DNA of 64,000 bases from Escherichia phage A4: the sequence record ON286972; one strand, given 5' to 3'. The notes under the pieces were generated by a model, which was not told where the DNA came from, made no database searches, and saw only the letters and a program-made list of their open reading frames with translations. The position numbers and the translations under genes were made by a program. Position 1 is the first letter of the stretch. Each line of letters starts with the position of its first letter. This document shows positions 1 to 60,621 of this stretch, piece by piece.

Positions 1-226
1 CTACTATAGTTACATATGGAATCATTGTTCTTTTATCAGTGATTATGGCAAATGATTTTAAGAGTGGTTTTCTTGAAGAAAATGGTGAGTTTTCTTCTAA
101 AACTGAAAAGTACTTTTATTATTTCTTTAAAATTTCGTATACAATTTTACTCATAATTTTGGGTTTACTATTGTATTTCATGTACACAATCTTAGATGTA
201 ATGCATCTTTTATAACGGAGATAACA

Positions 227-829
227 ATGACTTGTATTATTGCTTACACTGATGGTAACACATCTTTTATCGCGGGTGACAAACTGGGTAGTAATGGTTT
301 CACTAAAGCAATTCAAACTGAACCAAAAGTGTTTGAAAAAGAATTCATCAAAATCGATGAAAGTGGATTGAATCGCACCAAAGAAGTTATGGCAATGGGA
401 TACACGTCGAGCTTCCGCATGGGACAATTGCTGACGTATAAACTTGATTTACCTGAACAGCAATCAAACCAAACATTCTCACAGTACTTAGTACTTGAGG
501 TAATCCCACGTATTCGCACACTATTCAAAGAAGAATGGGGTGCTCGTGATACAACTCAAGATGTGGGTGGTGGTCAATTTATCATTCTTCATAATCATAC
601 AATTTATGAAGTGCAAGAGGACTTTTCAGTACTCCAGCCTAAGACTCAAATTACGTCAGTAGGTAGTGGGACATATCATGCAATTGCAGCTATGCAAGCA
701 TATATTGAAGTTCAAAAAGAAACAGGTGTTAAGATGGTTGATCGCACCGATTCTATCTTCAAAATTGTAAGTGATAATGTTACCAGCGTTAGTGCTGAGT
801 ATGATTTACTAAGCTATCCTAAGCTGTAA
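227..829 (+). CDS. HslV/proteasome-beta-like Ntn-hydrolase peptidase
   Basis: N-terminus MTCIIAYTDGNTSFIAGD resembles HslV MTTIVSV..VIAGD (Thr2 nucleophile present); later ITSVGSGTYHAIAAMQAY resembles HslV GSGGPYAQAAARAL. Confidence 0.5.
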   Translation: MTCIIAYTDGNTSFIAGDKLGSNGFTKAIQTEPKVFEKEFIKIDESGLNRTKEVMAMGYTSSFRMGQLLTYKLDLPEQQSNQTFSQYLVLEVIPRIRTLFKEEWGARDTTQDVGGGQFIILHNHTIYEVQEDFSVLQPKTQITSVGSGTYHAIAAMQAYIEVQKETGVKMVDRTDSIFKIVSDNVTSVSAEYDLLSYPKL

Positions 830-889
830 TACAAAAAAGGGGATTCTTATAATCCCCTATATTAATTTAATAAGGAGAGTATTATAACT

Positions 890-1102
890 ATGATAACTAT
901 CAATTACTTTTCACTATGCTTTGTTTATTTTGTTGTTGTATTTCTAGCAGTTGTAGCGTACAATAATATTAAATGTATATATAAAATTATCAAAAACAAA
1001 GAGAAATTCAATGGATGGATGATATATCACATTGTCATCTCGGTTGTGTGTATCTTATTTGTATACGATTTGAGTTCATTAGGTACAGTAGGTAAGCTAT
1101 GA
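890..1102 (+). CDS. small hydrophobic membrane protein
   Basis: 70-aa ORF, two hydrophobic segments; stop overlaps next start. Confidence 0.35.
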   Translation: MITINYFSLCFVYFVVVFLAVVAYNNIKCIYKIIKNKEKFNGWMIYHIVISVVCILFVYDLSSLGTVGKL

Positions 1103-1851
1103 TTTCTGACTCTTTTATAAAAAATAAAGGTAATAAACGTGTATTGGTTATTTCCGGTGCAGGTCTATCCGTTGAAAGTGGGATGGAACCGTTTCGCATG
1201 GACGATGGCCTATGGGATCAATTTCAAATAAATGATGTATGTAACATTGCACGTCTTAGTACTAAGTATCATTTAGTACACACTTTCTATAATACATTAC
1301 GTGTTAAAATGAAAGATTGTGTTCCTAATGATATGCATTATTATATCAAATCTCTAGAAGATACATACGGTGATAACTTTTTACATATGACTTCGAATAT
1401 GGATGATCTCTATACTCGTATTGGTGGTAATGAATTAAAGTTACATGGTAATTTAAAAGAAGTTATTGAGAATTTTACAATTGGTGGTGACGATTATAGT
1501 ATTGTGGATTGTGGTTATGAACCGTACATTCCGAAAGAAGGTGTCTTTGCGAAACCAAACGTAGTGTTCATTGGTGAATATTATCGTTATGTTGATGGTG
1601 AAAAACTCCCAATATACGATGAGCGTAATTTAATATTGCAATCCTTAACAGAAGATGATACAGTTGTAGTCATTGGTAGCAGTGACACAGTACTGAAATG
1701 GTCACATCTGGTTGCTTGTTTACCATGCTTTAGTGTTAATATCAACATCAGAAAAAATGATAACGATTTCATGTTCAATGAAAAAATTATAAAACCAGCT
1801 ACAAAAGCGATTCCAGTACTGGAAACTATCATTAAGGATAGAATGAAATGA
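1099..1851 (+). CDS. Sir2-family (sirtuin-like) NAD-dependent protein
   Basis: VLVISGAGLSVESGMEPFR..DGLW matches sirtuin NAD-binding motif GAGxSxxSGIPxFR..GLW; KLHGN candidate catalytic His; ATGA overlap with downstream Nudix. Confidence 0.6.
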   Translation: MISDSFIKNKGNKRVLVISGAGLSVESGMEPFRMDDGLWDQFQINDVCNIARLSTKYHLVHTFYNTLRVKMKDCVPNDMHYYIKSLEDTYGDNFLHMTSNMDDLYTRIGGNELKLHGNLKEVIENFTIGGDDYSIVDCGYEPYIPKEGVFAKPNVVFIGEYYRYVDGEKLPIYDERNLILQSLTEDDTVVVIGSSDTVLKWSHLVACLPCFSVNINIRKNDNDFMFNEKIIKPATKAIPVLETIIKDRMK

Positions 1852-2396
1852 TTCGAGAAGTACCTCTAGGTGAGTATGGTAAACGAGCAAACTTTGTATT
1901 CTGTTACTTCTTTGCTCGAAATTGTAACCCATATAAAGGTTATGAATTAAATGATATCCCTGTTGTGAATCTGGTATTACTCCAGCTTCGTTGGGATGGT
2001 TTACTGGGTGGTTGTGGTGGAACAGTCGAAGATACCGATGCCACCTTAGAAGATGCACTATTCCGTGAAATTCAGGAAGAGATGGATTATAATATTTTCA
2101 TCGAACAACTGAAACCATTGAAAACTTACGAACTATATCCTGGAGCACATACCCATAGCTATAGTTATGAAGTTACTTACGAAGAATTGAATGCGATTCG
2201 CGACGGATACAGTACTGCTAAACATGCAAGTGCAGAAGTGGCTGGTGTTAATTTATGTCACATTTCTCGTTATTCAAAGGGACAAAACCGAGAAGCAGGA
2301 TATAATAATCTTATGACACAAAACTTCATAGGAACTGCTAAAATGGAATTAGAACATCTTGTTCAATCCGAGAATTTACTGATTAGTTACTTATAA
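1848..2396 (+). CDS. Nudix-like hydrolase (degenerate Nudix box)
   Basis: GGTVEDTDATLEDALFREIQEE contains REIQEE signature of the Nudix box; start overlaps Sir2 stop. Confidence 0.45.
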   Translation: MIREVPLGEYGKRANFVFCYFFARNCNPYKGYELNDIPVVNLVLLQLRWDGLLGGCGGTVEDTDATLEDALFREIQEEMDYNIFIEQLKPLKTYELYPGAHTHSYSYEVTYEELNAIRDGYSTAKHASAEVAGVNLCHISRYSKGQNREAGYNNLMTQNFIGTAKMELEHLVQSENLLISYL

Positions 2397-2407
2397 GGTG
2401 AATTATA

Positions 2408-2740
2408 ATGTCTTACTCAATGTTTCTGGATGATATTCGTGATCCTGAAAAGTATTATCCAAATCAAAACATGGTTTTATGTCGTGATTATGAAAGTGCA
2501 TGTGCTTATGTAAATGAACATGGTTTACCACAATTTATTAGCTTCGATCATGACTTAGGTGATGTTGGGGAGGATGAAAAAACAGGGTATTCATTTGCAA
2601 AATTTCTAATTGATTATATGGTCGAAAACAATATCAGTACTGAATTCGATTATATCATCCATAGCAGTAATCCTGTAGGGAAGGTCAACATTGACACATA
2701 CTTACAGAATGGTTTTAGATTTTTGAGAGGGGACAATTGA
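2408..2740 (+). CDS. hypothetical protein
   Basis: 110-aa ORF with upstream AGGTGA; acidic motifs FLDDIRDP / SFDHDLGD; fold not assigned. Confidence 0.4.
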   Translation: MSYSMFLDDIRDPEKYYPNQNMVLCRDYESACAYVNEHGLPQFISFDHDLGDVGEDEKTGYSFAKFLIDYMVENNISTEFDYIIHSSNPVGKVNIDTYLQNGFRFLRGDN

Positions 2741-3036: not shown

Positions 3037-3100
3037 GAAGTGTCTGAGTCTATAATCTACCGTAGAGCACAAGGATGTGCTCATAACTCAAGGATGTTTT

Positions 3101-4540
3101 ATGAAAAAATACACAATTGACACAAACGTACTACTATCCGATCCAAATGCAACTGTAGCATTTGATGGGGCAGCAGTGATTCTACCATTCACTGTTCTTG
3201 AAGAACTTGATTCAATCAAGAGCCGTAATGTTGACGTATCACGTGATGCACGTTTCGCAATCCGTAACATCGATGCAATTCTGAAAGATGCTACTCATGA
3301 AGAAATCAGCAGTACTGGTGTTAATATTGCCAATATCCACAAAAATATGGATGCATCCAGTAAGCTATTCGTTATGACGAATGAAGAAGCTGAAGCACTT
3401 ATTCGTATGGGCGGCAGTGAAGATAAAGTAGAAACTCTACTTAAAAGTACTGTACCAGATGACAAAATCATTCTAGTGGCTTTGGCATCACAATCAGTAC
3501 TGGTAACTCGCGACATTAACATGCGTATCAAAGCAATGAGCTACGGTGTTGAGGTACAAGATTACCGTCATGACGTTGCAATCGAAGATAGTGAGTTGAT
3601 TCATATTGGTCAGCACCACCTTGATATTGATTTCTGGAAAACATTCAGTGAAGTTAATAATGCTGAAATTAAATCCCAACAAGAAGGTCGCCGTCTATAT
3701 CACTATATTCCAACCGCATTGATTCAAGATGTTCTACCAGATAATCTATGTATTGGTGATTATCTATATGATAATGCTGATGTACTATTCGTATACGAAG
3801 GTCAATCTGCTATCGAAGAAGAAGACGGTTCACTAACACCTGAAGATATTTTGGTATTCCAGGATATTGGTCAAAGTATCGCTCTTCGTGCTAAAGTTTG
3901 GGATATTAAAGCAAAGAATATTCAACAGGCACTAGCAATTAACAGTATTCTTGACCCTGATGTACATTTGACAGTACTACTCGGTTCAGCAGGTACTGGT
4001 AAAACATTGATTACTGTTGCTACTTCACTCGAATTAGTGCTGGAAAAACGTAAATACGATCGTATAATCTTCTCCAAAACACAAGATTCTCAATTTGAAG
4101 AAATTGGTTTCTTGCCTGGTTCTGAAGCTGAGAAGGTCATCCCATTCTGTGGGGCTGCAATTGATGCACTAGAGTATCTACACAAAGACGATGCTAACCC
4201 ACAAGGTAGTATTGAAGAGATTCTCAAACGTAACGTAATGCAGTTTAAAGCATTGAACTTTATTCGTGGTCGTTCTTTTACTAATACAATTCTAATTGTT
4301 GATGAATTCCAGAACATCACCCCTGCACAGGCAAAAACTATTCTTACCCGTGCAGGTCAAAACTGTAAGGTTATCATTATGGGTAACTTAGCACAGATTG
4401 ATAGTAAGTTTATTAGTCCAGTTAATAGTGGTTTGACATATGTAACTGAAAAATTCAAAGATTGGGAAGGGTGTCGTATCATTGAATTGGAAGGTGTTGT
4501 ACGTTCTGCACTTGCAGAGTTTGCAGAAGAAAATATGTAA
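3101..4540 (+). CDS. phoH: PhoH-like ATPase with N-terminal PIN-like domain
   Basis: Walker A GSAGTGKT, Walker B IVDEFQN; N-terminal ~130 aa PIN-like; start moved to ATG 3101 (MKKYTIDTN) with AAGGA upstream. Confidence 0.7.
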   Translation: MKKYTIDTNVLLSDPNATVAFDGAAVILPFTVLEELDSIKSRNVDVSRDARFAIRNIDAILKDATHEEISSTGVNIANIHKNMDASSKLFVMTNEEAEALIRMGGSEDKVETLLKSTVPDDKIILVALASQSVLVTRDINMRIKAMSYGVEVQDYRHDVAIEDSELIHIGQHHLDIDFWKTFSEVNNAEIKSQQEGRRLYHYIPTALIQDVLPDNLCIGDYLYDNADVLFVYEGQSAIEEEDGSLTPEDILVFQDIGQSIALRAKVWDIKAKNIQQALAINSILDPDVHLTVLLGSAGTGKTLITVATSLELVLEKRKYDRIIFSKTQDSQFEEIGFLPGSEAEKVIPFCGAAIDALEYLHKDDANPQGSIEEILKRNVMQFKALNFIRGRSFTNTILIVDEFQNITPAQAKTILTRAGQNCKVIIMGNLAQIDSKFISPVNSGLTYVTEKFKDWEGCRIIELEGVVRSALAEFAEENM

Positions 4541-6336: not shown

Positions 6337-6666
6337 ATGAACAAAATTGACGTTGAAGTTGTTATTGGCTATATTGAAATTGAACAGTGTGGTATTGATA
6401 CATTTATTGACACTCTTAATAAGTACCGTGCAGAGTACAAGGGGCACATTAGTCTTTCACCAGACGGTGGTTACGGCGGGTTCGATGGATACAATGTAAT
6501 TTGGACACGAGAAGAAACGGATGAAGAATACAATATCCGTTTGCAGTTAGAATCACAACGTCGCGAAGAAATTGAACGTCAAGAAATGAAACATTTAATG
6601 AACAAGAAATCATTAAGTGCTGAAGAGAAATCTAAACTTCTAAAATATATCAAGGATTACATGTAA
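6337..6666 (+). CDS. hypothetical protein
   Basis: 109-aa ORF; ATGTAATG junction with next gene. Confidence 0.45.
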   Translation: MNKIDVEVVIGYIEIEQCGIDTFIDTLNKYRAEYKGHISLSPDGGYGGFDGYNVIWTREETDEEYNIRLQLESQRREEIERQEMKHLMNKKSLSAEEKSKLLKYIKDYM

Positions 6667-7316
6667 TGAAAAATGTAACTCAAGAAAAGATTCTGTATCA
6701 CGCTAAACATAACGGTTCTTTCAATATTATTAGTCGAGAATACGTTGGTCATATGGCTAAGTTGATTGATAATTTATTGGAATTTGATTTCCTGAAATGG
6801 GAAACTAATAATCTTTGGTATGAATACGCTGGACAGCAATGGGAAAGTGATTATGATAATGCAACACATTCATATACTATCACCAAAGCAGGTGAAGTTC
6901 GTTTAGCCATTATGCGTTGTGCATATGCTTACAAAAATCACAAAGGTGAAGAAAAACATACTCGCAGAAATGAAGAGCTATTGCTTCTCATGGAATCAGC
7001 GAAAGTTACAATGTATGATTTGTTCAACCATCCGCGTTGGTATGAAAATCTAACCAAAGCAGAGTACAAAGCGTTGCGTTACATTGATGAACAGACCAAA
7101 ACGCCAATTTTAGTAGATGATGTAAGTGACGGTGAACTAAGCCTCAAATGTGTATTTGACAATTCCAGTACTGAGAGCATTGCTGACATTTCAGTACAAA
7201 TGGCACTTAAAGCTATGGAACTATTCAAGACGCAATACCAAGGTACAAATGCCGATGAAATTGAACGTGAGTTCATTACACGCGTACAGATTGCATTAGC
7301 TAAGACCAAAACTTAA
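6666..7316 (+). CDS. hypothetical protein
   Basis: 216-aa ORF. Confidence 0.45.
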   Translation: MKNVTQEKILYHAKHNGSFNIISREYVGHMAKLIDNLLEFDFLKWETNNLWYEYAGQQWESDYDNATHSYTITKAGEVRLAIMRCAYAYKNHKGEEKHTRRNEELLLLMESAKVTMYDLFNHPRWYENLTKAEYKALRYIDEQTKTPILVDDVSDGELSLKCVFDNSSTESIADISVQMALKAMELFKTQYQGTNADEIEREFITRVQIALAKTKT

Positions 7317-7334
7317 AAACATTGGAAAATAATC

Positions 7335-7520
7335 ATGAAAAGACTTGCATATGTATTAGTATTAATGTTAATATCATCTTGTTCACTAATGGACTTTAAA
7401 TACAGTACACAATACTATTCAGTGTTTGAAGAAGCACCAGATAACTGTTTACTAGAAAGTAATCAGATGTATGTCATTAATGGTGAAACAAAATTACAAT
7501 ACATTTGCAAAGAGGATTAA
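7335..7520 (+). CDS. putative small lipoprotein
   Basis: signal peptide with lipobox-like LISSC. Confidence 0.4.
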   Translation: MKRLAYVLVLMLISSCSLMDFKYSTQYYSVFEEAPDNCLLESNQMYVINGETKLQYICKED

Positions 7521-7523
7521 TTC

Positions 7524-7757
7524 ATGAAAAAGATTATCATTTCTTGTTTAGTTGCTGGGGCAACCTTACTCGTAGGCTGTGCACCTAAAGTTAACGAGAT
7601 GGATGCAGAAATGATCCGTAAGGACTTAACTAAACTGAATCATAATGGCACACTCTATGCCTGTCATGAGATGCGTCACGGACAGGATCTAAATCTTATG
7701 TGTCGCAAAATTGTTAACCGCAAACGCTTAACAACAGTTCCAAAGGATGCTCAATGA
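7524..7757 (+). CDS. putative small lipoprotein
   Basis: MKKIIISCLVAGATLLVGC: canonical lipobox LVGC. Confidence 0.5.
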   Translation: MKKIIISCLVAGATLLVGCAPKVNEMDAEMIRKDLTKLNHNGTLYACHEMRHGQDLNLMCRKIVNRKRLTTVPKDAQ

Positions 7758-7779
7758 AAGACGTAATGGGATATAAACT

Positions 7780-8139
7780 ATGAGTGATTATGTTGCATTC
7801 CTACATCGTTTTGGTAAAGCTGAAGAAAAGCACATCATTCGTCTACCAGCTTATGGTGAGAAAGACTGGTACAAAAGTACTATCAGCGTAGGTGCATTCC
7901 GTGACCGTGAAGCTGAATTCTTTCTCGGTAAGCAACATGAACGAGCAGTACTTTGCTCCCTTTGGCGTTTAGACGAATGGGATGAAGAGAATGCAAGAAC
8001 TGCGGTATCAATGCTTAAAATTGTTGGCATTGCAAACTATCAGCACCCATATGATCTATTACCTACGTTTACCCATGCTTCATTGTTTGACTTTTATAAA
8101 GCAATCGGGTATGATTATAAAAAGAAACGTTATATCTGA
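7780..8139 (+). CDS. hypothetical protein
   Basis: 119-aa ORF. Confidence 0.45.
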   Translation: MSDYVAFLHRFGKAEEKHIIRLPAYGEKDWYKSTISVGAFRDREAEFFLGKQHERAVLCSLWRLDEWDEENARTAVSMLKIVGIANYQHPYDLLPTFTHASLFDFYKAIGYDYKKKRYI

Positions 8140-11019: not shown

Positions 11020-12825
11020 ATGCAAATAGATAAATTATATACGGACGTAACTAACTTCCTCAACCAGAGTAACGCTGATTTAACAAACGAAAATGCAAAT
11101 AAAGACGCTAAATGTGTTAATACACATCGTGATTTATTGGCAGGTATTCTTTCTAAACATTATTCCCAAGATGTGATTCCTGATGAATTGATGAAGTGGC
11201 ATAATGAAGGTTACGGTCATATTCATGATTTAGACTATTACATTAGCCCATTAACAAACTGTTGTTTAGTTAATTATCCTGATATGCTTGCTAATGGCTT
11301 CATGATTGGTTGTGCCAAGATTGAAGAACCAAAAAGCTTTGGGGTAGCTTGTACAGTACTAACACAGATTGTTCAGGCTGTTGCAAGCTCACAGTACGGT
11401 GGTCAGTCGTTGGCTCACATTGACACTGGCCTTGCACCATATGTACAAAAGTCATGGAATAAACTTCTAGAAAAACAAAAGAAATACAATCTTAGTACTG
11501 AATTCATTGAAGATGAGTTGCGTAAGGAAGTTTATGACGGTTGTCAAACAATTCTATATCAAACAAACTCAATGATCAGTACTAATGGTCAGGCTGCGTT
11601 CATTTCTTTAAGTTTAGGATTAGGTACATCTAAATTTGAAAAACTAATCACTGAACAATATTTGAAAGTACATGAAAATGGACTAGGTAAAGATAAGATT
11701 ACTCCAGTATTCCCTAAAGTAATATTCTTTCTTCAGGATGGAATTAATATGAACAGTACTGATTGTAATTATGACTTAAAACAATTAGCTATGCGTTGTG
11801 CAGCTAAACGCATCTATCCTGATTTTGTATCAGTACCTTTGAATCAAAAAGTTACTGGAAGCACAACTATTCCTGTTACTCCGATGGGATGCAGAAGTTT
11901 CTTAGGGAAATGGGAAAATACACAAGGAGAAGAAAAATACAATGGTAGATTCAACCTTGGCGTTGTGTCTATCAACTTACCACTAATTGCTCTTGAGAGT
12001 GAGTCTGATGGTGATTTCTTTGATAAGATTGACGAGCACATGAATATTGCTTACAGAGCACAGATGAACCGTGTAGAACGTTTAAAAGGTACAAAGGCAA
12101 AACAAAACCCTATACTTTTCGCTGAAGGTGCGATTGCACGTCTTGATCCTGAAGACACTATTGACCATTTATTTTATAATGGTTATGCTAGTATCAGTAT
12201 TGGTTATGTTGGGTTATCTGAGTGTTCAGAGATCCTCACTGGTTCAATTAGTAAAGAGTTCTGTATGAGTATTTTGAACTACATGAAAGCAAAATGTGAT
12301 GAATTCAAAAAAGAGAGTAACATTGCATTTAGTCTTTACGGTACACCAGCAGAATCACTATGTTATAAATTTGCACGTTGTATTGAGGCAAAACATCCTT
12401 CAGTACTGAAACGTGACTTTATCACTAACTCATTCCATCAACCAGTATGGGTTGAAAGTACACCTTTTGCTAAATGGGATTATGAGGAAAACTTTGCTTA
12501 TCTAAGCAATGGTGGTAATATTAGCTATGTCGAAACACCAAATCTAGCTAATAATATACAAGCACTAGAAACATTAATAAATTTTGCTTATACTAAAATT
12601 CCATATTTTGGTATTAATCAGAAGGTCGATAAGTGTTTTGAATGTGATTTTGAGGGTGAATTTAGTGTAGATAAAAATGGTTTCCATTGTCCGGTATGTG
12701 ACAACCGCAATGAACGCACAATGTCGGTTATTCGCAGAGTATCAGGATATCTTAGTGCACCAAATAGTCGCCCGTTCAATAAAGGTAAACAAGCTGAAGT
12801 TATTCAACGTATACAACACATGTAA
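11020..12825 (+). CDS. nrdD: anaerobic ribonucleoside-triphosphate reductase (class III)
   Basis: 601-aa; C-terminal Cys cluster CFECDFEG..CPVCDN and glycyl-radical-like RRVSGYL; adjacent nrdG. Confidence 0.8.
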   Translation: MQIDKLYTDVTNFLNQSNADLTNENANKDAKCVNTHRDLLAGILSKHYSQDVIPDELMKWHNEGYGHIHDLDYYISPLTNCCLVNYPDMLANGFMIGCAKIEEPKSFGVACTVLTQIVQAVASSQYGGQSLAHIDTGLAPYVQKSWNKLLEKQKKYNLSTEFIEDELRKEVYDGCQTILYQTNSMISTNGQAAFISLSLGLGTSKFEKLITEQYLKVHENGLGKDKITPVFPKVIFFLQDGINMNSTDCNYDLKQLAMRCAAKRIYPDFVSVPLNQKVTGSTTIPVTPMGCRSFLGKWENTQGEEKYNGRFNLGVVSINLPLIALESESDGDFFDKIDEHMNIAYRAQMNRVERLKGTKAKQNPILFAEGAIARLDPEDTIDHLFYNGYASISIGYVGLSECSEILTGSISKEFCMSILNYMKAKCDEFKKESNIAFSLYGTPAESLCYKFARCIEAKHPSVLKRDFITNSFHQPVWVESTPFAKWDYEENFAYLSNGGNISYVETPNLANNIQALETLINFAYTKIPYFGINQKVDKCFECDFEGEFSVDKNGFHCPVCDNRNERTMSVIRRVSGYLSAPNSRPFNKGKQAEVIQRIQHM

Positions 12826-33938: not shown

Positions 33939-34529
33939 TTGGTTATGGGTAAACTTATTTTCTTTAGTGGGAGTATGTCATCAGGAAAGAGTACACATCT
34001 TTTACAGAACGCATATAACCACAAGAAGAACGGGATGAAAGTCATCTACTTAACGAGTGCATTAGATGATCGTTATGGTACTGGTAAAATAACATCGAGA
34101 ATCGGTATAGAATCTGAAGCTCAAGTTATTCCAAAAGATGACCTAAGCGTTATTCATGACGTAATAAAACTATTACAGGTTGACAATGATTATAATAGTA
34201 TCTACGTTGATGAATGTCAGTTTTTAAATCGAAAACAAATTGATTTATTAGCCGATATTGCTGATGAGCATATGGTTGATGTATATTGTTATGGTATTAA
34301 AACCGATTTTGAATCAAATACATTTGAAGGTTCTCAAAGGTTATTTGAAATAGCAGATGAGATCCATGAATTAAAGAACGTATGTGAAAATCAAAAGTGC
34401 GGAAGAAATGCCATAATGAATGCTCGCATCGTAGATAGTACTGATAAAGTGTTTATTGGTGGTGATGAATCATATAAGAGCCTGTGTAGAAAATGTTATA
34501 AAAACTATATGAGGAATAAAAATGGTTGA
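33939..34529 (+). CDS. tdk: thymidine kinase
   Basis: P-loop FFSGSMSSGKST, ~195 aa, C-terminal CRKC pair typical of type II TK. Confidence 0.75.
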   Translation: MVMGKLIFFSGSMSSGKSTHLLQNAYNHKKNGMKVIYLTSALDDRYGTGKITSRIGIESEAQVIPKDDLSVIHDVIKLLQVDNDYNSIYVDECQFLNRKQIDLLADIADEHMVDVYCYGIKTDFESNTFEGSQRLFEIADEIHELKNVCENQKCGRNAIMNARIVDSTDKVFIGGDESYKSLCRKCYKNYMRNKNG

Positions 34530-57817: not shown

Positions 57818-59143
57818 ATGAGCGAACAACAAGATATCCTGAACGTAAAACTGACTCCTAAGAAAGCAAAAATGGCTATGGCTCTGGCAGATAAAATTCA
57901 GGATAGTCTGATGATTTGGGGTAGCCCTGGTATCGGTAAGTCTGCGATTGCACGTCAATACGCTGACGAGAACTATCCTCTTCGTAAGGATAACTTGGCT
58001 AAAATCGAGTTCATGAAACAACAAATTGAAGTTGATACTGAAAATGCTGATGCACTTCGCCGCGAACTGGCAGCGTTTGAAGCAAAACTGATTGACCAAG
58101 ACACTAACTTCATCGACTTCCGTCTGTCACAGATTGAACCAAGTGACCTACGTGGTATCCCAGTCCCTGAAAAAGTGTTCCTGGATATGGATGGCAAACA
58201 ACTGATTGAATCTGAACTGGAAACAGCTAAAGATTACATTGCTGAAACAGCAGTTGTATGGGCAGCACCTAAAGTACTGAAACTGTCTCCAGATTGGAAA
58301 GGTGTTATCCTGTTTGACGAAATTAACTCTGCTATGCCGATTGTACAGGCAGCGTCTTATCAGCTAATCCTCGACCGTTGTGTTGGTGAGATGAAGCTAC
58401 CTAAGACTGCACTGATTCTCGCAGCAGGTAACCGTGAAACTGATGGCGGCGTAACGTTCTCTCTGGCAACGCCACTACGTGACCGTATGACCCACATCGA
58501 AATGGTTCCTTACCATCAAGATTGGATTGACGATTACGCGATTGCTAAGCGTTTGAACCCAGGTACTGTTGCGTTCATCAACAACACTGGTGCTAAGTAC
58601 TTCAACACCCTTAGCCCACAAGATCCTTCTCACAGTGGTGGTACTTCTCCACGTTCATGGGAAGCAGTAGCACGCTACGAAGACCTGAAGAAAGGCAACA
58701 ACATTGATAAAGAAGTGTTCCGTGCTCTAATCGCTGGTCGTGTTGGTGAAGGTGTAGCAACTGAATATATCGAATACGTAGAAAACGTATCTAAACTACC
58801 AGATACTATGTCCATCCTACAGGGTGAGATTAAAGAGATTGATGCAACGCTGGATATTTCTGCGAACTACTTCATCTCTCTGAATCTGGTTTATAAAATT
58901 ATCGACCTGTACAATGAGAAGCAAGAACAACGTCTTCCAGTTGAAGAGTGGGGCAAGCTGTGCAACAACTTCATCACCTTCCTGGACCGTAACTTCTCCG
59001 AAACTCAGGCAGAACTGGCAGTACTAGCAATTCGTACCATCACTCAACATAAGGTAGCGATTGCGTACAAAGATGTTCCAGCGTTCAAAGACTTCGTTAT
59101 GAAGTACTCTGACCTAGTACGCAAAGCACGTTCTCTTGGTTAA
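57818..59143 (+). CDS. AAA+ ATPase (MoxR/CobS-like)
   Basis: Walker A WGSPGIGKS, Walker B ILFDEINSA; CTG/CGT-rich codon usage unlike neighbours. Confidence 0.65.
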   Translation: MSEQQDILNVKLTPKKAKMAMALADKIQDSLMIWGSPGIGKSAIARQYADENYPLRKDNLAKIEFMKQQIEVDTENADALRRELAAFEAKLIDQDTNFIDFRLSQIEPSDLRGIPVPEKVFLDMDGKQLIESELETAKDYIAETAVVWAAPKVLKLSPDWKGVILFDEINSAMPIVQAASYQLILDRCVGEMKLPKTALILAAGNRETDGGVTFSLATPLRDRMTHIEMVPYHQDWIDDYAIAKRLNPGTVAFINNTGAKYFNTLSPQDPSHSGGTSPRSWEAVARYEDLKKGNNIDKEVFRALIAGRVGEGVATEYIEYVENVSKLPDTMSILQGEIKEIDATLDISANYFISLNLVYKIIDLYNEKQEQRLPVEEWGKLCNNFITFLDRNFSETQAELAVLAIRTITQHKVAIAYKDVPAFKDFVMKYSDLVRKARSLG

Positions 59144-59217
59144 TAACTAAAAGAATGTTTGACAAGAAGGATGCCACATGGTATCCTTCTTTTATCTTAA
59201 CTAAACGAGGAAATATC

Positions 59218-60621
59218 ATGTCCGATAAGAAATTTAGCGACGTAACACCACAACTCCAGAAAGAATGCCAAGACCGTTTGATTCTTGCTCGTACTTCTCT
59301 GATGTTAACTGCTCCATTCTTTGGTGTACTGGCTTCACGTCTGCGTCCAGTTGCAAACAATACATGGTGTCGTACCTTAGCAGTAGATGGTAAACATTTA
59401 TTCTATAACGTAGAATTTATCATGGGTATTCAAGACCCAAGCAAGAAAGAAGCATACGAAGAAGCAATTCGTGAGAAGCATCCTGAAGTAACTGAAGAAC
59501 AATTGAAAGAAATGACCGAAGGTTTGACTGATGAAAACCTGATTGCAGTTATCTGTCATGAAATTCTTCACTGTGCATACGATCACTTCCTTCGTCGTGG
59601 TATGCGTGACCCACAACGCTACAACCGTGCAGCAGACTACGCAATCAACCAAATTATTGTTCGTGAAAAAATTGGTAAGATTCAAAGTCAATGGTTGTAT
59701 GATAAGAAGTATGATGGTATGACCGCCGAAGAGATTTATATTCTTCTAGAAGAAGAAGATAAACAAGATCAAGATGAAGGTGAAGGACAACCACAATCTG
59801 GTAGTGGTGAAGGTGAAGGTAAATCACGCGGTACTTTTGGTGATATCCAAAATGGTAAAGGCAAAGGCACTACCATTGACCAACACGATGTACCACAAGA
59901 TGGTGAAGGTGGTGCATCTGAAGCACAAAAACGTGAATACATGGACGATTTCAAAACAGCAATGATGAATGCTGCTCGTGCAGGTGGTACTCCTGCTGAA
60001 ATCGCTCGTATGATCAATAACTTTAAAGAACCAAAAATTGACTGGCGTTCTAAACTTCAACGTACTCTTCGTAGCTGGTTGAAGTCCGATGCGACCTATC
60101 AAAGCCCAAGCCGCCGTTCGTGGGGTGCTGGTTTTGGTTCTAACGGTTCATTCTACGGGAATCCAATCTTCCCAGGTATGAAACCAGATGACGATATTGA
60201 TATTGCAATTGCACTCGATGCATCAGGCTCTATCAGTGAAGATATGCTTCGTGATTTCATCAGTGAAGTACTAGGCATCACTAAACAATTCAAGCAGTTT
60301 AAAATTCGTATCATGACATTTGATACTGAAGTTTATACTGTGATGGATTATAAAACTGGTGAAGAACGTAAGATTCTTGAATATCCAGTTAAAGGTGGTG
60401 GCGGTACTGACTTTGAAGCAGTTTGGGTTCACATGAAGCATGACAATTATAAGCCTAAACAGCTTATCATGTTTACCGATGGTGAACCGTGGCAGTCATG
60501 GGGTGATCCTAACTACTGTAAAACACTGTTTGTGATTCACAGTAACCCGAACAAAGTAGCACCATTTGGTGAAACTGTTCACTACGAATATGAAGCGGAC
60601 AAAAAACGCCAACGTTCGTAA
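59218..60621 (+). CDS. vWA-domain protein with N-terminal HExxH metallopeptidase-like motif (CobT/DUF2201-like)
   Basis: HEILH motif; MIDAS-like DASGS; start set at ATG 59218 with GAGGAAATATC upstream. Confidence 0.6.
   Translation: MSDKKFSDVTPQLQKECQDRLILARTSLMLTAPFFGVLASRLRPVANNTWCRTLAVDGKHLFYNVEFIMGIQDPSKKEAYEEAIREKHPEVTEEQLKEMTEGLTDENLIAVICHEILHCAYDHFLRRGMRDPQRYNRAADYAINQIIVREKIGKIQSQWLYDKKYDGMTAEEIYILLEEEDKQDQDEGEGQPQSGSGEGEGKSRGTFGDIQNGKGKGTTIDQHDVPQDGEGGASEAQKREYMDDFKTAMMNAARAGGTPAEIARMINNFKEPKIDWRSKLQRTLRSWLKSDATYQSPSRRSWGAGFGSNGSFYGNPIFPGMKPDDDIDIAIALDASGSISEDMLRDFISEVLGITKQFKQFKIRIMTFDTEVYTVMDYKTGEERKILEYPVKGGGGTDFEAVWVHMKHDNYKPKQLIMFTDGEPWQSWGDPNYCKTLFVIHSNPNKVAPFGETVHYEYEADKKRQRS

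What the first reader, a model, noticed from the sequence alone, without database searches (positions are those of the whole stretch)
227..829. Phage-encoded HslV/proteasome-beta-like peptidase with intact Thr2 nucleophile
The N-terminus (MTCIIAYTDGNTSFIAGD) and a later GSG..Y..AA block match HslV signature regions as I recall them, and Thr directly follows the initiator Met as needed for an N-terminal-nucleophile hydrolase. No HslU-like AAA partner is adjacent. It sits immediately upstream of the Sir2-Nudix genes, so co-regulation is plausible.
Basis: partly seen in the sequence, partly recalled or inferred. Interest (0 to 1): 0.5.

Follow-up and report, generated by a model that had tools for sequence, protein, structure and literature searches.

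The report
Orphan proteasome-like peptidase in jumbo phage
This phage gene encodes a small proteasome-type threonine peptidase with an intact active site but no partner ATPase; it belongs to an already catalogued, widespread but biochemically untested family, so it is a correct but fairly ordinary finding.

Summary

It is not an HslV orthologue. It scores 20 bits against a 137-bit NCBIfam cutoff. The basic pore cluster of HslV is missing, the pore loop is 8 residues longer, and no HslU gene lies in the window or near any of 166 homologous loci.

It fits the phage-spread "group I" orphan proteasome homologues catalogued by Fuchs, Alva and Lupas in 2021, most likely their AAH cluster. Close relatives are already annotated "HslV family peptidase" (PHROG_1040).

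The Sir2-Nudix adjacency exists only in this jumbo-phage clade (5 of 86 phage-derived loci). Co-transcription is plausible, but a functional link is unsupported.

The protein is absent from the virion proteome of a close relative, and phage T5 lacks the gene while its EPS7-like relatives have it. It is therefore an accessory, non-structural enzyme. The most likely mechanism is an ATPase-independent Thr1 peptidase made during infection. Its substrate is unknown.

The parts
217..220 (+). Shine-Dalgarno GGAG, 6 nt upstream of the ATG
   Evidence: Read directly from the sequence. The upstream ORF stops at 213-215.
227..829 (+). CDS of 200 aa: a proteasome-like (MEROPS T1-type) N-terminal-nucleophile hydrolase of the orphan phage/bacterial 'group I' family (PHROG_1040; probably the AAH cluster of Fuchs et al. 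2021)
230..232 (+). Thr2 codon, the predicted Thr1 nucleophile after Met removal; followed by the near-invariant Cys3
   Evidence: Thr in 349 of 351 and Cys in 337 of 351 family members. It aligns with HslV Thr1.
278..280 (+). Asp18 codon (proteasome Asp17 equivalent), within IAGD
   Evidence: Asp in 350 of 351. It aligns with the IAGD of HslV.
326..328 (+). Lys34 codon (proteasome Lys33 equivalent)
   Evidence: Lys in 351 of 351.
338..379 (+). 14-residue insertion (residues 38-51, KEFIKIDESGLNRT) that lengthens the S3/S4 beta-hairpin; specific to the jumbo-phage clade
   Evidence: The K34-G58 segment is 25 residues here. It is 11 residues in 267 of 351 family members and 13 in E. coli HslV. 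It is modelled as extended strands 35-43 and 50-59 at high pLDDT.
398..427 (+). Gly58 (Gly47 oxyanion-hole equivalent) followed by the family signature Y-T-S-S-F-R-M-G-Q
   Evidence: G58 in 348 of 351, T60 in 340, S62 in 348, R64 in 344 and Q67 in 344. HslV has A, A, T and E at positions 60, 62, 64 and 67.
521..574 (+). Pore-loop region after helix 2 (residues 99-116, LFKEEWGARDTTQDVGGG), ending in the invariant Gly116
   Evidence: 18 residues with net charge -2, against 10 residues (WRTDRMLRKL, net +3) in E. coli HslV. The family median is 18 residues with net charge -1. This is the lowest-pLDDT segment of the model (68-78).
662..670 (+). G146-S147-G148 (HslV Ser124 / proteasome Ser129 equivalent)
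   Evidence: G146 in 351 of 351 and G148 in 348 of 351. Position 147 is Cys in 175, Ser in 159 and Ala in 11.
838..858 (+). Weak hairpin between this gene and the downstream membrane-protein/Sir2/Nudix/cREC cassette; probably not a functional terminator
   Evidence: Flagged by the consensus scan. Free energy is -11.2 kcal/mol, z = -1.19, and 26 of 200 shuffles fold as well. It is absent from ELP-22, L007 and phAPEC6.

Best explanation
The gene encodes a catalytically competent proteasome-type threonine hydrolase of an orphan family that is spread mainly by phages.

Shown: it has the Ntn alpha-beta-beta-alpha sandwich of proteasome beta, HslV and BPH. Thr2, Asp18, Lys34 and Gly58 are essentially invariant across the family. 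The gene is under purifying selection.

Inferred from established knowledge of HslV, BPH and the proteasome: host methionine aminopeptidase removes Met1, so Thr becomes residue 1. Its free amino group and side-chain hydroxyl, assisted by Lys33 and Asp17 and the Gly47 oxyanion hole, then cleave peptide bonds.

Inferred with less certainty: the subunits assemble into stacked rings with the active sites inside. The enzyme works without a dedicated unfoldase, as proposed for BPH, on unfolded polypeptides, peptides or a narrow set of targets. It does so during the non-structural (early or middle) phase of infection. In this jumbo-phage clade a 14-residue extension of the substrate-binding S3/S4 hairpin probably tunes specificity or ring contacts. 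The substrate and the benefit to the phage are not known.

For: Sequence: PHROG_1040 at 3.6e-21. The family profile hits HslV at 2.4e-9, then proteasome beta and BPH. Relatives pass the Pfam Proteasome threshold: 26 and 31 bits and 38.3 bits for the T5-like homologue, against a cutoff of 22.4.

Active site: T2 349/351, D18 350/351, K34 351/351, G58 348/351. dN/dS is 0.04-0.2.

No partner ATPase: there is no HslU homologue in the window or in the flanks of 166 loci. Unbiased clustering of neighbouring ORFs finds nothing in more than 10 of 65 viral groups, or in more than 2 of 17 bacterial groups. Only 4 Escherichia-phage records hit HslU, against 57 that carry this gene. Fuchs et al. reached the same conclusion for all the new proteasome homologues (PMC8665760).

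Unlike HslV: it fails the HslV equivalog models. The HslV basic pore cluster Arg86/Arg89/Lys90 (PMC5777263) aligns to Glu/Arg/Gly, and the loop is 8 residues longer and acidic. The family also occurs in Streptomyces (L166, 163 bits), a phylum without HslV in Table 1 of Fuchs et al..

Non-structural and accessory: the phAPEC6 orthologue gp345c is not among the 62 virion proteins found by mass spectrometry, and the prohead protease there is gp227c. T5 lacks the gene between thy and rnh, while EPS7-like phages have it. Neighbours are nucleotide-metabolism or auxiliary genes.
Against: No biochemical data exist for any member of this family (literature searches). BPH, the closest solved structure, showed no activity in standard peptidase assays although it binds epoxomicin (PMC5777263), so 'peptidase' remains an inference. 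The oligomeric state could not be predicted here because no multimer modelling or model coordinates were available. Use of a host unfoldase (HslU, ClpX, ClpA) cannot be excluded by sequence alone. The query itself does not reach the Pfam Proteasome threshold. Position 147, the Ser129 equivalent, varies between Cys, Ser and Ala. The dS values are saturated, so dN/dS is only approximate.
Confidence: 0.6

Rival explanations
1. It is a functional HslV replacement. The phage subunit forms dodecamers that dock onto the host HslU ATPase and redirect ATP-dependent proteolysis to phage-chosen substrates.
For: HslV is the best sequence match among solved structures and the best Foldseek match by E-value. 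The E. coli host encodes HslU. Relatives are annotated 'HslV family peptidase'.
Against: It scores 20 bits against a 137-bit cutoff, and 18.8 against 157.75, on the HslV equivalog models. E. coli HslV scores only 39.8 bits on the family profile, where members score 160-270. The basic pore cluster Arg86/Arg89/Lys90, needed for HslV activity (PMC5777263), is not conserved, and the loop is 8 residues longer. From my own recollection of the HslUV structures, the HslU-tail contacts Lys28 and Arg35 of HslV align with Ile29 and with Phe36, which is Phe in 345 of 351 members. The family occurs in Streptomyces, a phylum without HslVU. Phage groups that do encode HslU-like ATPases (Erwinia Ea35-70 type) are not the ones carrying this family.
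Confidence: 0.12
2. It is a component of an NAD+/ADP-ribose counter-defence module with the downstream Sir2, Nudix and cREC genes. One example would be processing or activating one of those enzymes or their targets.
For: The genes share a strand and lie close together: 60 nt to the next ORF, then a translationally coupled Sir2-Nudix-cREC cassette. The order is conserved in Asteriusvirus-type relatives. In relatives the intergenic gap is about 27 nt with no hairpin.
Against: Sir2, Nudix and cREC co-occur with the gene only in 5 of 86 phage-derived loci, all with at least 70% identical orthologues, and in none of the other 81. In EPS7-like phages the gene sits between thymidylate synthase and RNase H. 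In Vibrio and Aeromonas phages it sits near RNR and PhoH, and in Salicola phage next to dCMP deaminase. T5 has Sir2 and PhoH but lacks this gene. There is no PADLOC hit.
Confidence: 0.05
3. It is a virion-maturation (prohead or tail) protease.
For: In about 10 of 65 groups of viral contigs, mostly small ones, the gene lies 3-4 kb upstream of portal and major-capsid-like genes.
Against: The phAPEC6 orthologue gp345c was not detected among 62 virion proteins. That phage has a dedicated prohead protease, gp227c, beside the capsid, scaffold and portal genes. In jumbo and T5-like phages the gene lies among metabolic early genes. T5 makes virions without it. Several of the small contigs carry their own HK97-type protease.
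Confidence: 0.03
4. It uses the proteasome fold for something other than bulk proteolysis. It could be a sequence-specific transpeptidase or ligase like archaeal connectase, or an amidase acting on a small molecule or a modified peptide.
For: There is a weak Pfam hit to the connectase N-terminal domain over residues 1-19 (E = 0.007). The jumbo-phage clade has an insertion at the S3/S4 site, where connectase carries its specificity element (PMC8665760). The strictly conserved family-specific residues Cys3, Phe36, Arg64 and Gln67 near the active site are absent from HslV. BPH shows that a perfect active site need not give generic peptidase activity.
Confidence: 0.12

Closest known systems
[quoted passage not shown]
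   Same: It is a compact subunit of about 180-200 aa with helices H1-H4 and no H5. It has no propeptide and conserves Thr1, Asp17, Lys33 and Gly47. [quoted passage not shown] It is found in many phages, in alpha-proteobacteria (Azospirillum, Skermanella, Devosia), in Firmicutes and in Streptomyces. It has no conserved context and no AAA+ partner, as the authors report.
   Different: The assignment could not be checked against their representative (WP_035979212) or their HMM database. The jumbo-phage clade has a 14-residue S3/S4 hairpin insertion that most members lack. Actinobacteria are rare in my top hits, which may be a bias of the search pattern.
BPH (Betaproteobacteria proteasome homologue; PDB 5OVS, 5OVT, 5OVU)
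   Different: Sequence identity is only 13-16%. The profile E-value against BPH chains is about 5e-4 to 1e-3, weaker than against HslV. The loop here is mildly acidic (net -2), not a run of Asp and Glu. The heptameric double ring of BPH is untested for this protein.
HslV (ClpQ), proteolytic subunit of the HslVU protease
   Different: It fails the curated HslV models. No HslU gene is present. The basic pore cluster is not conserved and the pore loop is 8 residues longer. The family-specific invariants Cys3, Phe36, Arg64, Gln67 and Gly116 are absent from HslV.
[quoted passage not shown] 2021)
   Same: It is phage-borne, belongs to group I and has no known function.
   Different: PPH is about 140 residues and lacks helix H2. 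This protein is 200 residues, with H2 at residues 84-103.

Membership tests
Proteasome-like Ntn hydrolases (Pfam PF00227 / MEROPS T1 superfamily) | Four-layer alpha-beta-beta-alpha Ntn sandwich | tested here: met
Proteasome-like Ntn hydrolases (Pfam PF00227 / MEROPS T1 superfamily) | Thr (or Ser) as first residue of the mature chain | tested here: met
   Met1-Thr2 in the ORF. Thr in 349 of 351 relatives and Ser in 1. Actual Met removal was not testable; it has been shown for BPH by mass spectrometry.
Proteasome-like Ntn hydrolases (Pfam PF00227 / MEROPS T1 superfamily) | Asp17, Lys33 and the Gly47 oxyanion hole | tested here: met
   D18 350/351, K34 351/351, G58 348/351, each aligned to the HslV equivalents.
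Proteasome-like Ntn hydrolases (Pfam PF00227 / MEROPS T1 superfamily) | Score above Pfam's gathering threshold (22.4 bits) | tested here: inconclusive
   The query gives no PF00227 hit. Homologues pass: P0054 at 26.0, P0062 at 31.3 and the Epseptimavirus homologue at 38.3.
HslV (ClpQ) proper | Score above the curated equivalog cutoffs (NF003964 137 bits; TIGR03692 157.75 bits) | tested here: not met
   20.0 and 18.8 bits, matching residues 119-173 only.
HslV (ClpQ) proper | Partner HslU AAA+ gene, normally in the same operon | tested here: not met
   tblastn with E. coli HslU finds no hit in the window or in the flanks of 166 homologous loci. Only 4 Escherichia-phage records hit HslU, against 57 that carry this gene. 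The host does encode HslU.
HslV (ClpQ) proper | Short pore loop with the basic cluster Arg86/Arg89/Lys90, plus the HslU-contact residues | tested here: not met
   The aligned residues are Glu, Arg and Gly. The loop is 18 residues against 10, with net charge -2 against +3. The cluster is defined in PMC5777263. From my recollection of the literature, HslV Lys28 and Arg35 align with Ile and with an invariant Phe.
HslV (ClpQ) proper | Dodecamer of two hexameric rings; peptidase activated by HslU and ATP | not testable with these tools
   This needs multimer modelling or SEC/EM plus enzyme assays.
AAH cluster (Fuchs et al. 2021) | Compact group I architecture: H1-H4 present, no insertions, no S12/H5, no propeptide | tested here: met
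   DSSP shows helices at 63-72, 84-103, 149-166 and 170-184 and a last strand at 192-197, with no fifth helix. The jumbo-phage clade adds one S3/S4 insertion.
AAH cluster (Fuchs et al. 2021) | Distribution: alpha-proteobacteria, Actinobacteria, many phages, and phage-mediated spread into Firmicutes and Bacteroidetes | tested here: inconclusive
   Relatives occur in 390 species genomes. The top 80 are dominated by Azospirillum and other Rhodospirillales, Myxococcota, CPR, Bacillales and Dehalococcoidia, with one Streptomyces. Relatives also occur in 355 viral contigs. This is consistent, but Actinobacteria are few in the subset shown.
AAH cluster (Fuchs et al. 2021) | Clustering with the AAH representative WP_035979212 in CLANS or HHpred | not testable with these tools
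   The representative sequence and the MPI 'proteasome_homologs' database cannot be reached from here.
BPH | Elongated, strongly acidic pore loop; tetradecameric double ring | tested here: inconclusive
   The loop is longer than in HslV but only mildly acidic. The ring symmetry was not testable.
PPH (Fuchs et al. 2021) | About 140 residues, helix H2 missing | tested here: not met
   The protein is 200 residues with H2 modelled at 84-103.
Connectase (Pfam PF09894 MJ0548_N) | Pfam threshold of 26.8 bits; no H1/H2; two-helix S3/S4 insertion covering the active site | tested here: not met

The most novel reading that the evidence does not exclude
This orphan family is a phage weapon. It would be a self-contained, ATP-independent threonine protease that removes a specific host protein, such as an immune sensor or effector or a stress or proteostasis factor, early in infection. 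Its presence in E. coli and Salmonella phages (Asteriusvirus-type jumbo phages and EPS7-like T5 relatives, with T5 as a natural 'minus' control) would then give the first genetically tractable system for finding out what any AAH-, PPH- or BPH-type orphan proteasome homologue does.
Probability: 0.12. Interest if true: 0.6.

Novelty: new member of a known kind. Interest (0 to 1): 0.3.

Why it matters
Proteasome relatives without a partner ATPase (BPH, Anbu, AAH, PPH and others) are numerous. This family alone has at least 2,196 clusters at 50% identity with E <= 1e-30, is found in 355 viral contigs and occurs in 390 bacterial species genomes. No physiological substrate is known for any of them. 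The invariant active site and purifying selection show that phages keep the enzyme working. Members in coliphages and Salmonella phages offer an easy experimental route. For this window itself the result is mainly an annotation: a correctly recognised, already catalogued accessory enzyme, with no demonstrated link to the neighbouring NAD+/ADP-ribose genes.

Tried and rejected
(1) Second 'protease' about 1 kb upstream in the relative ELP-22, considered as a possible paralogue or hetero-oligomer partner. It is an unrelated ClpP/NfeD-like protein and lies outside the window.

(2) Paralogues inside the window. There are none.

(3) Functional coupling with Sir2, Nudix and cREC. Co-occurrence is limited to one clade.

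(4) Any conserved neighbour. All-against-all clustering of ORFs within 5-6 kb of the gene in 86 phage-derived and 80 bacterial loci found none. PhoH is nearby in 8 of 86 loci, including three distant lineages, and nucleotide-metabolism genes recur loosely.

(5) HslU or another unfoldase. None was found. The AAA ORF at 57818 belongs to a MoxR-vWA-metallopeptidase pair.

(6) Terminator separating the gene from the Sir2 cassette. The hairpin is weak and not conserved.

(7) Defence-system relationship. There is no PADLOC hit.

(8) C-terminal extensions of some homologues as fusion clues. They are acidic low-complexity tails with no Pfam match. Several apparent 'long' bacterial forms are artefacts of upstream start codons in GC-rich DNA.

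(9) Virion or prohead protease role. This is rejected for this clade.

(11) Literature searches for experimental work on phage HslV-like proteins found only annotation-level mentions.

Full report
OBSERVATION. The window carries an ATG-started ORF at 227-829 on the + strand. It encodes 200 aa and begins MTCIIAYTDGNTSFIAGDK. A GGAG ribosome-binding site lies at 217-220, and the upstream ORF stops at 213-215.

WHAT THE WINDOW IS. The first 6 kb match E. coli jumbo phages of the genus Asteriusvirus (BAU.Micro_ELP-22, JP4, phAPEC6, G17 and others) at about 77-80% nucleotide identity, in the same gene order. The identical protein (P0001) is on record as 'hypothetical protein' on a 358,987-bp contig in E. 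coli assemblies. In two relatives the orthologue is already annotated 'HslV family peptidase'.

IS IT A PROTEASOME/HslV-TYPE PROTEIN? Yes, on four independent lines.

(i) Profiles. PHROG_1040 'peptidase HslV family' hits at E = 3.6e-21. A 27-sequence family alignment (A1) searched against all PDB sequences puts HslV chains first (E = 2.4e-9), followed by bacterial and archaeal proteasome beta and BPH. Met-Thr, IAGD, K-V and GSG are in register. The query alone does not reach Pfam's Proteasome model. Its relatives do: 26.0 and 31.3 bits, and 38.3 bits for the T5-like homologue, against a cutoff of 22.4.

(iii) Active site. I aligned 351 distinct relatives drawn from viral contigs, bacterial genomes and the protein libraries. 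Thr2 is kept in 349, Asp18 in 350, Lys34 in 351 and Gly58 in 348. These are the equivalents of proteasome Thr1, Asp17, Lys33 and Gly47. The GxG at 146-148 is kept in all but three, with Cys or Ser in the middle. The MT start is nearly universal in 86 phage-derived loci.

(iv) Selection. dN/dS against four orthologues is 0.04-0.2. dS is saturated, so the figure is rough.

IS IT HslV? No. It scores 20.0 and 18.8 bits on the two curated HslV equivalog models, whose cutoffs are 137 and 157.75. On the family's own profile, members from phages, Bacillales, Dehalococcoidia, CPR bacteria and Streptomyces score 160-270 bits, while authentic E. coli HslV scores 39.8. The family has its own invariant residues that HslV lacks: Cys3, Phe36, the T-x-S-F-R-x-x-Q motif after Gly58, and Gly116. 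The loop after helix 2 lines the pore in HslV and BPH. It is 18 residues with net charge -2 here (family median 18 residues, net -1), against 10 residues and net +3 in E. coli HslV. The HslV basic cluster Arg86/Arg89/Lys90, whose mutation cripples HslV (PMC5777263), aligns with Glu, Arg and Gly. From my own recollection of the HslUV structures, the HslU-tail contacts Lys28 and Arg35 align with Ile and with the invariant Phe36. Structurally the protein is as close to BPH as to HslV.

PARTNER ATPase. I fetched authentic E. coli HslU and searched with it. There is no hit in the 64-kb window or in the flanks of 166 homologous loci. In the phage collection, HslU-like genes occur mainly in Erwinia and Salmonella jumbo phages of other groups. 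Only 4 Escherichia-phage records have any hit, against 57 that carry this gene. The window has three Walker-A ORFs: the PIN-PhoH protein, thymidine kinase and an AAA ATPase at 57818-59143. That ATPase is followed directly by a DUF2201 metallopeptidase-vWA protein. This is the MoxR-vWA pair described for group 2.2 jumbo phages (PMC7824862), so it is not an unfoldase for this peptidase.

CONTEXT AND THE Sir2-NUDIX IDEA. Downstream on the same strand lie a 70-aa membrane ORF (890-1102), Sir2 (1099-1851), a Nudt16-like Nudix (1848-2396), a cREC domain protein (2408-2740) and a PIN-PhoH fusion (3077-4540). The Sir2-Nudix-cREC genes overlap end to end, whereas the peptidase is separated from them by 60 nt. 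The hairpin in that gap (838-858) is weak (-11.2 kcal/mol, z = -1.2) and absent from relatives, where the gap is about 27 nt. Co-transcription is therefore plausible.

It is not evidence of a shared function. Among 86 phage-derived loci with the gene, Sir2, Nudix and cREC are within 10 kb only in the 5 closely related jumbo-phage loci. Elsewhere the neighbours differ. In EPS7-like phages they are thymidylate synthase, a DUF3307 membrane protein and RNase H. In Vibrio and Aeromonas phages they are RNR and PhoH, in Salicola phage SCTP-2 dCMP deaminase, and in a Moorella phage unknown genes. Unbiased clustering of neighbouring ORFs finds no family in more than 10 of 65 viral groups, and those are portal- and capsid-like genes in small contigs. 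Nothing is shared by more than 2 of 17 bacterial groups. PhoH is nearby in 8 of 86 loci, including three distant lineages. That is a loose association typical of the auxiliary or early region of lytic phages. T5 has phoH, nrdD and Sir2 in the same region but lacks this gene, because thy and rnh are adjacent there. The gene is therefore an accessory cassette.

NOT A VIRION PROTEASE. The phAPEC6 orthologue is gp345c. It is not among the 62 virion proteins found by mass spectrometry. The prohead protease of that phage is gp227c, next to the scaffold, major capsid and portal genes (PMC7247149).

WHAT IS ALREADY KNOWN. Fuchs, Alva and Lupas (2021, PMC8665760) catalogued 22 new proteasome homologues. 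Their group I (HslV, BPH, AAH, CPH, PPH) is bacterial and phage-borne. PPH is about 140 aa and lacks helix 2. [quoted passage not shown] The authors found no informative gene context and no co-occurring AAA+ partner.

The present protein has all four helices and no fifth. Its bacterial relatives are dominated by Azospirillum and other Rhodospirillales, Myxococcota, CPR, Bacillales and Dehalococcoidia, plus a Streptomyces. This fits AAH best. I could not compare it with their representative sequence, so the assignment is probable, not proven.

The family is large. It has 8,453 clusters at 50% identity with E <= 1e-3 and 2,196 with E <= 1e-30, the looser count probably reaching into HslV. It is found in 355 viral contigs, 196 GenBank phage records and 34 viral structure clusters with the fold. 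A Salmonella jumbo-phage paper had already remarked on 'HslV without HslU' (PMC7823757). I found no experimental study of any phage member.

WHAT IS PARTICULAR HERE. The Asteriusvirus-type clade has a 14-residue insertion (residues 38-51) that lengthens the S3/S4 beta-hairpin. The segment from K34 to G58 is 25 residues, against 11 in 267 of 351 relatives. In BPH and the proteasome, bound substrate analogues pair as an extra strand with this hairpin (PMC5777263). In connectase, an insertion at this site confers specificity (PMC8665760). The insertion may therefore tune substrate choice or ring contacts, but this is inference only.

MECHANISM.
- Shown: the fold, the invariant catalytic residues, purifying selection, the absence of a dedicated ATPase, and the non-virion, accessory status.
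- Inferred from HslV, BPH and proteasome chemistry: Met1 is removed by host Met aminopeptidase. Thr1 then acts as nucleophile and general base, together with Lys33, Asp17 and the Gly47 oxyanion hole.
- Inferred more weakly: the protein assembles into rings and acts on unfolded polypeptides or a restricted set of targets without ATP, during the non-structural phase of infection.
- Unknown: the substrate and the benefit to the phage.

I put 0.6 on this overall picture, and more than 0.9 on 'active-site-competent proteasome-fold hydrolase'. The rivals are HslU-dependent HslV mimicry (0.12), a connectase-like or non-proteolytic use of the fold (0.12), a role in the Sir2/Nudix module (0.05) and virion maturation (0.03).

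VERDICT. The gene is a new member of a known but biochemically uncharacterised kind. Interest is modest (0.3). The finding is mainly a sound annotation. Its value is that coliphage and Salmonella-phage members, with T5 as a natural gene-minus comparator, would make the function of orphan proteasome homologues testable.

Noticed in passing
window 57818-59143 and 59155-60621: An AAA ATPase (PHROG_1297, with weak Pfam AAA/AAA_3 hits) is followed directly by a protein with a DUF2201_N metallopeptidase domain and a vWA-like domain. This is the MoxR-vWA-metallopeptidase chaperone pair that Iyer et al. 2021 predicted for group 2.2 jumbo phages.
   Followed up: partly
window 890-2740: A 70-aa membrane ORF is followed by a translationally coupled Sir2 / Nudt16-like Nudix / cREC cassette with overlapping stop and start codons. 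It looks like an NAD+/ADP-ribose-centred module of the kind discussed by Iyer et al. It is conserved only in the Asteriusvirus-type clade among the loci examined.
   Followed up: partly
window 3077-4540: A PIN_4 domain is fused to PhoH (487 aa, PHROG_2765). Shorter PhoH genes lie within 3 kb of the peptidase homologue in Vibrio phage 166E36-1, Aeromonas phage 4L372XY and contig L027.
   Followed up: partly
L050 10001-13765 (IMG/VR contig of 324 kb): Three paralogues of the peptidase family lie within 4 kb in one jumbo-phage contig. This could indicate a hetero-oligomeric assembly.
   Followed up: no
phage records KU886222 / NC_023557 (Erwinia phages Special G and Ea35-70) and relatives: These jumbo phages encode an HslU-like ATPase (about 42% identity to E. 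coli HslU over 63% of its length). Special G also has a proteasome-fold protein (BFVD A0A191ZBV1). This may be a phage-encoded HslVU-like pair in a different lineage.
   Followed up: no
L001 3065-3673 (Escherichia phage BAU.Micro_ELP-22); the equivalent position lies just left of the window start: A 202-aa 'protease' with a hydrophobic N-terminus and weak ClpP/NfeD similarity sits about 1 kb upstream of the peptidase gene in relatives. It is unrelated to the proteasome fold.
   Followed up: yes
L167 (phage T5, NC_005859) 6413-7862 compared with L002 (Salmonella phage fuchur) 3691-6327: T5 has thy and rnh adjacent. EPS7-like relatives carry a three-gene insert between them: a DUF3307 membrane protein, the peptidase homologue and an 89-aa ORF. 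This is a natural presence/absence polymorphism.
   Followed up: yes
L003 5001-5984 and proteins P0048, P0053, P0073, P0089, P0095, P0096: Some marine-phage homologues carry strongly acidic, low-complexity C-terminal tails of 100-200 residues with no Pfam match.
   Followed up: partly
window 11020-12825 and 33939-34529: An NrdD-like anaerobic ribonucleotide reductase and a thymidine kinase lie here. The left part of the window is an auxiliary or nucleotide-metabolism region, as in T5-like phages.
   Followed up: no
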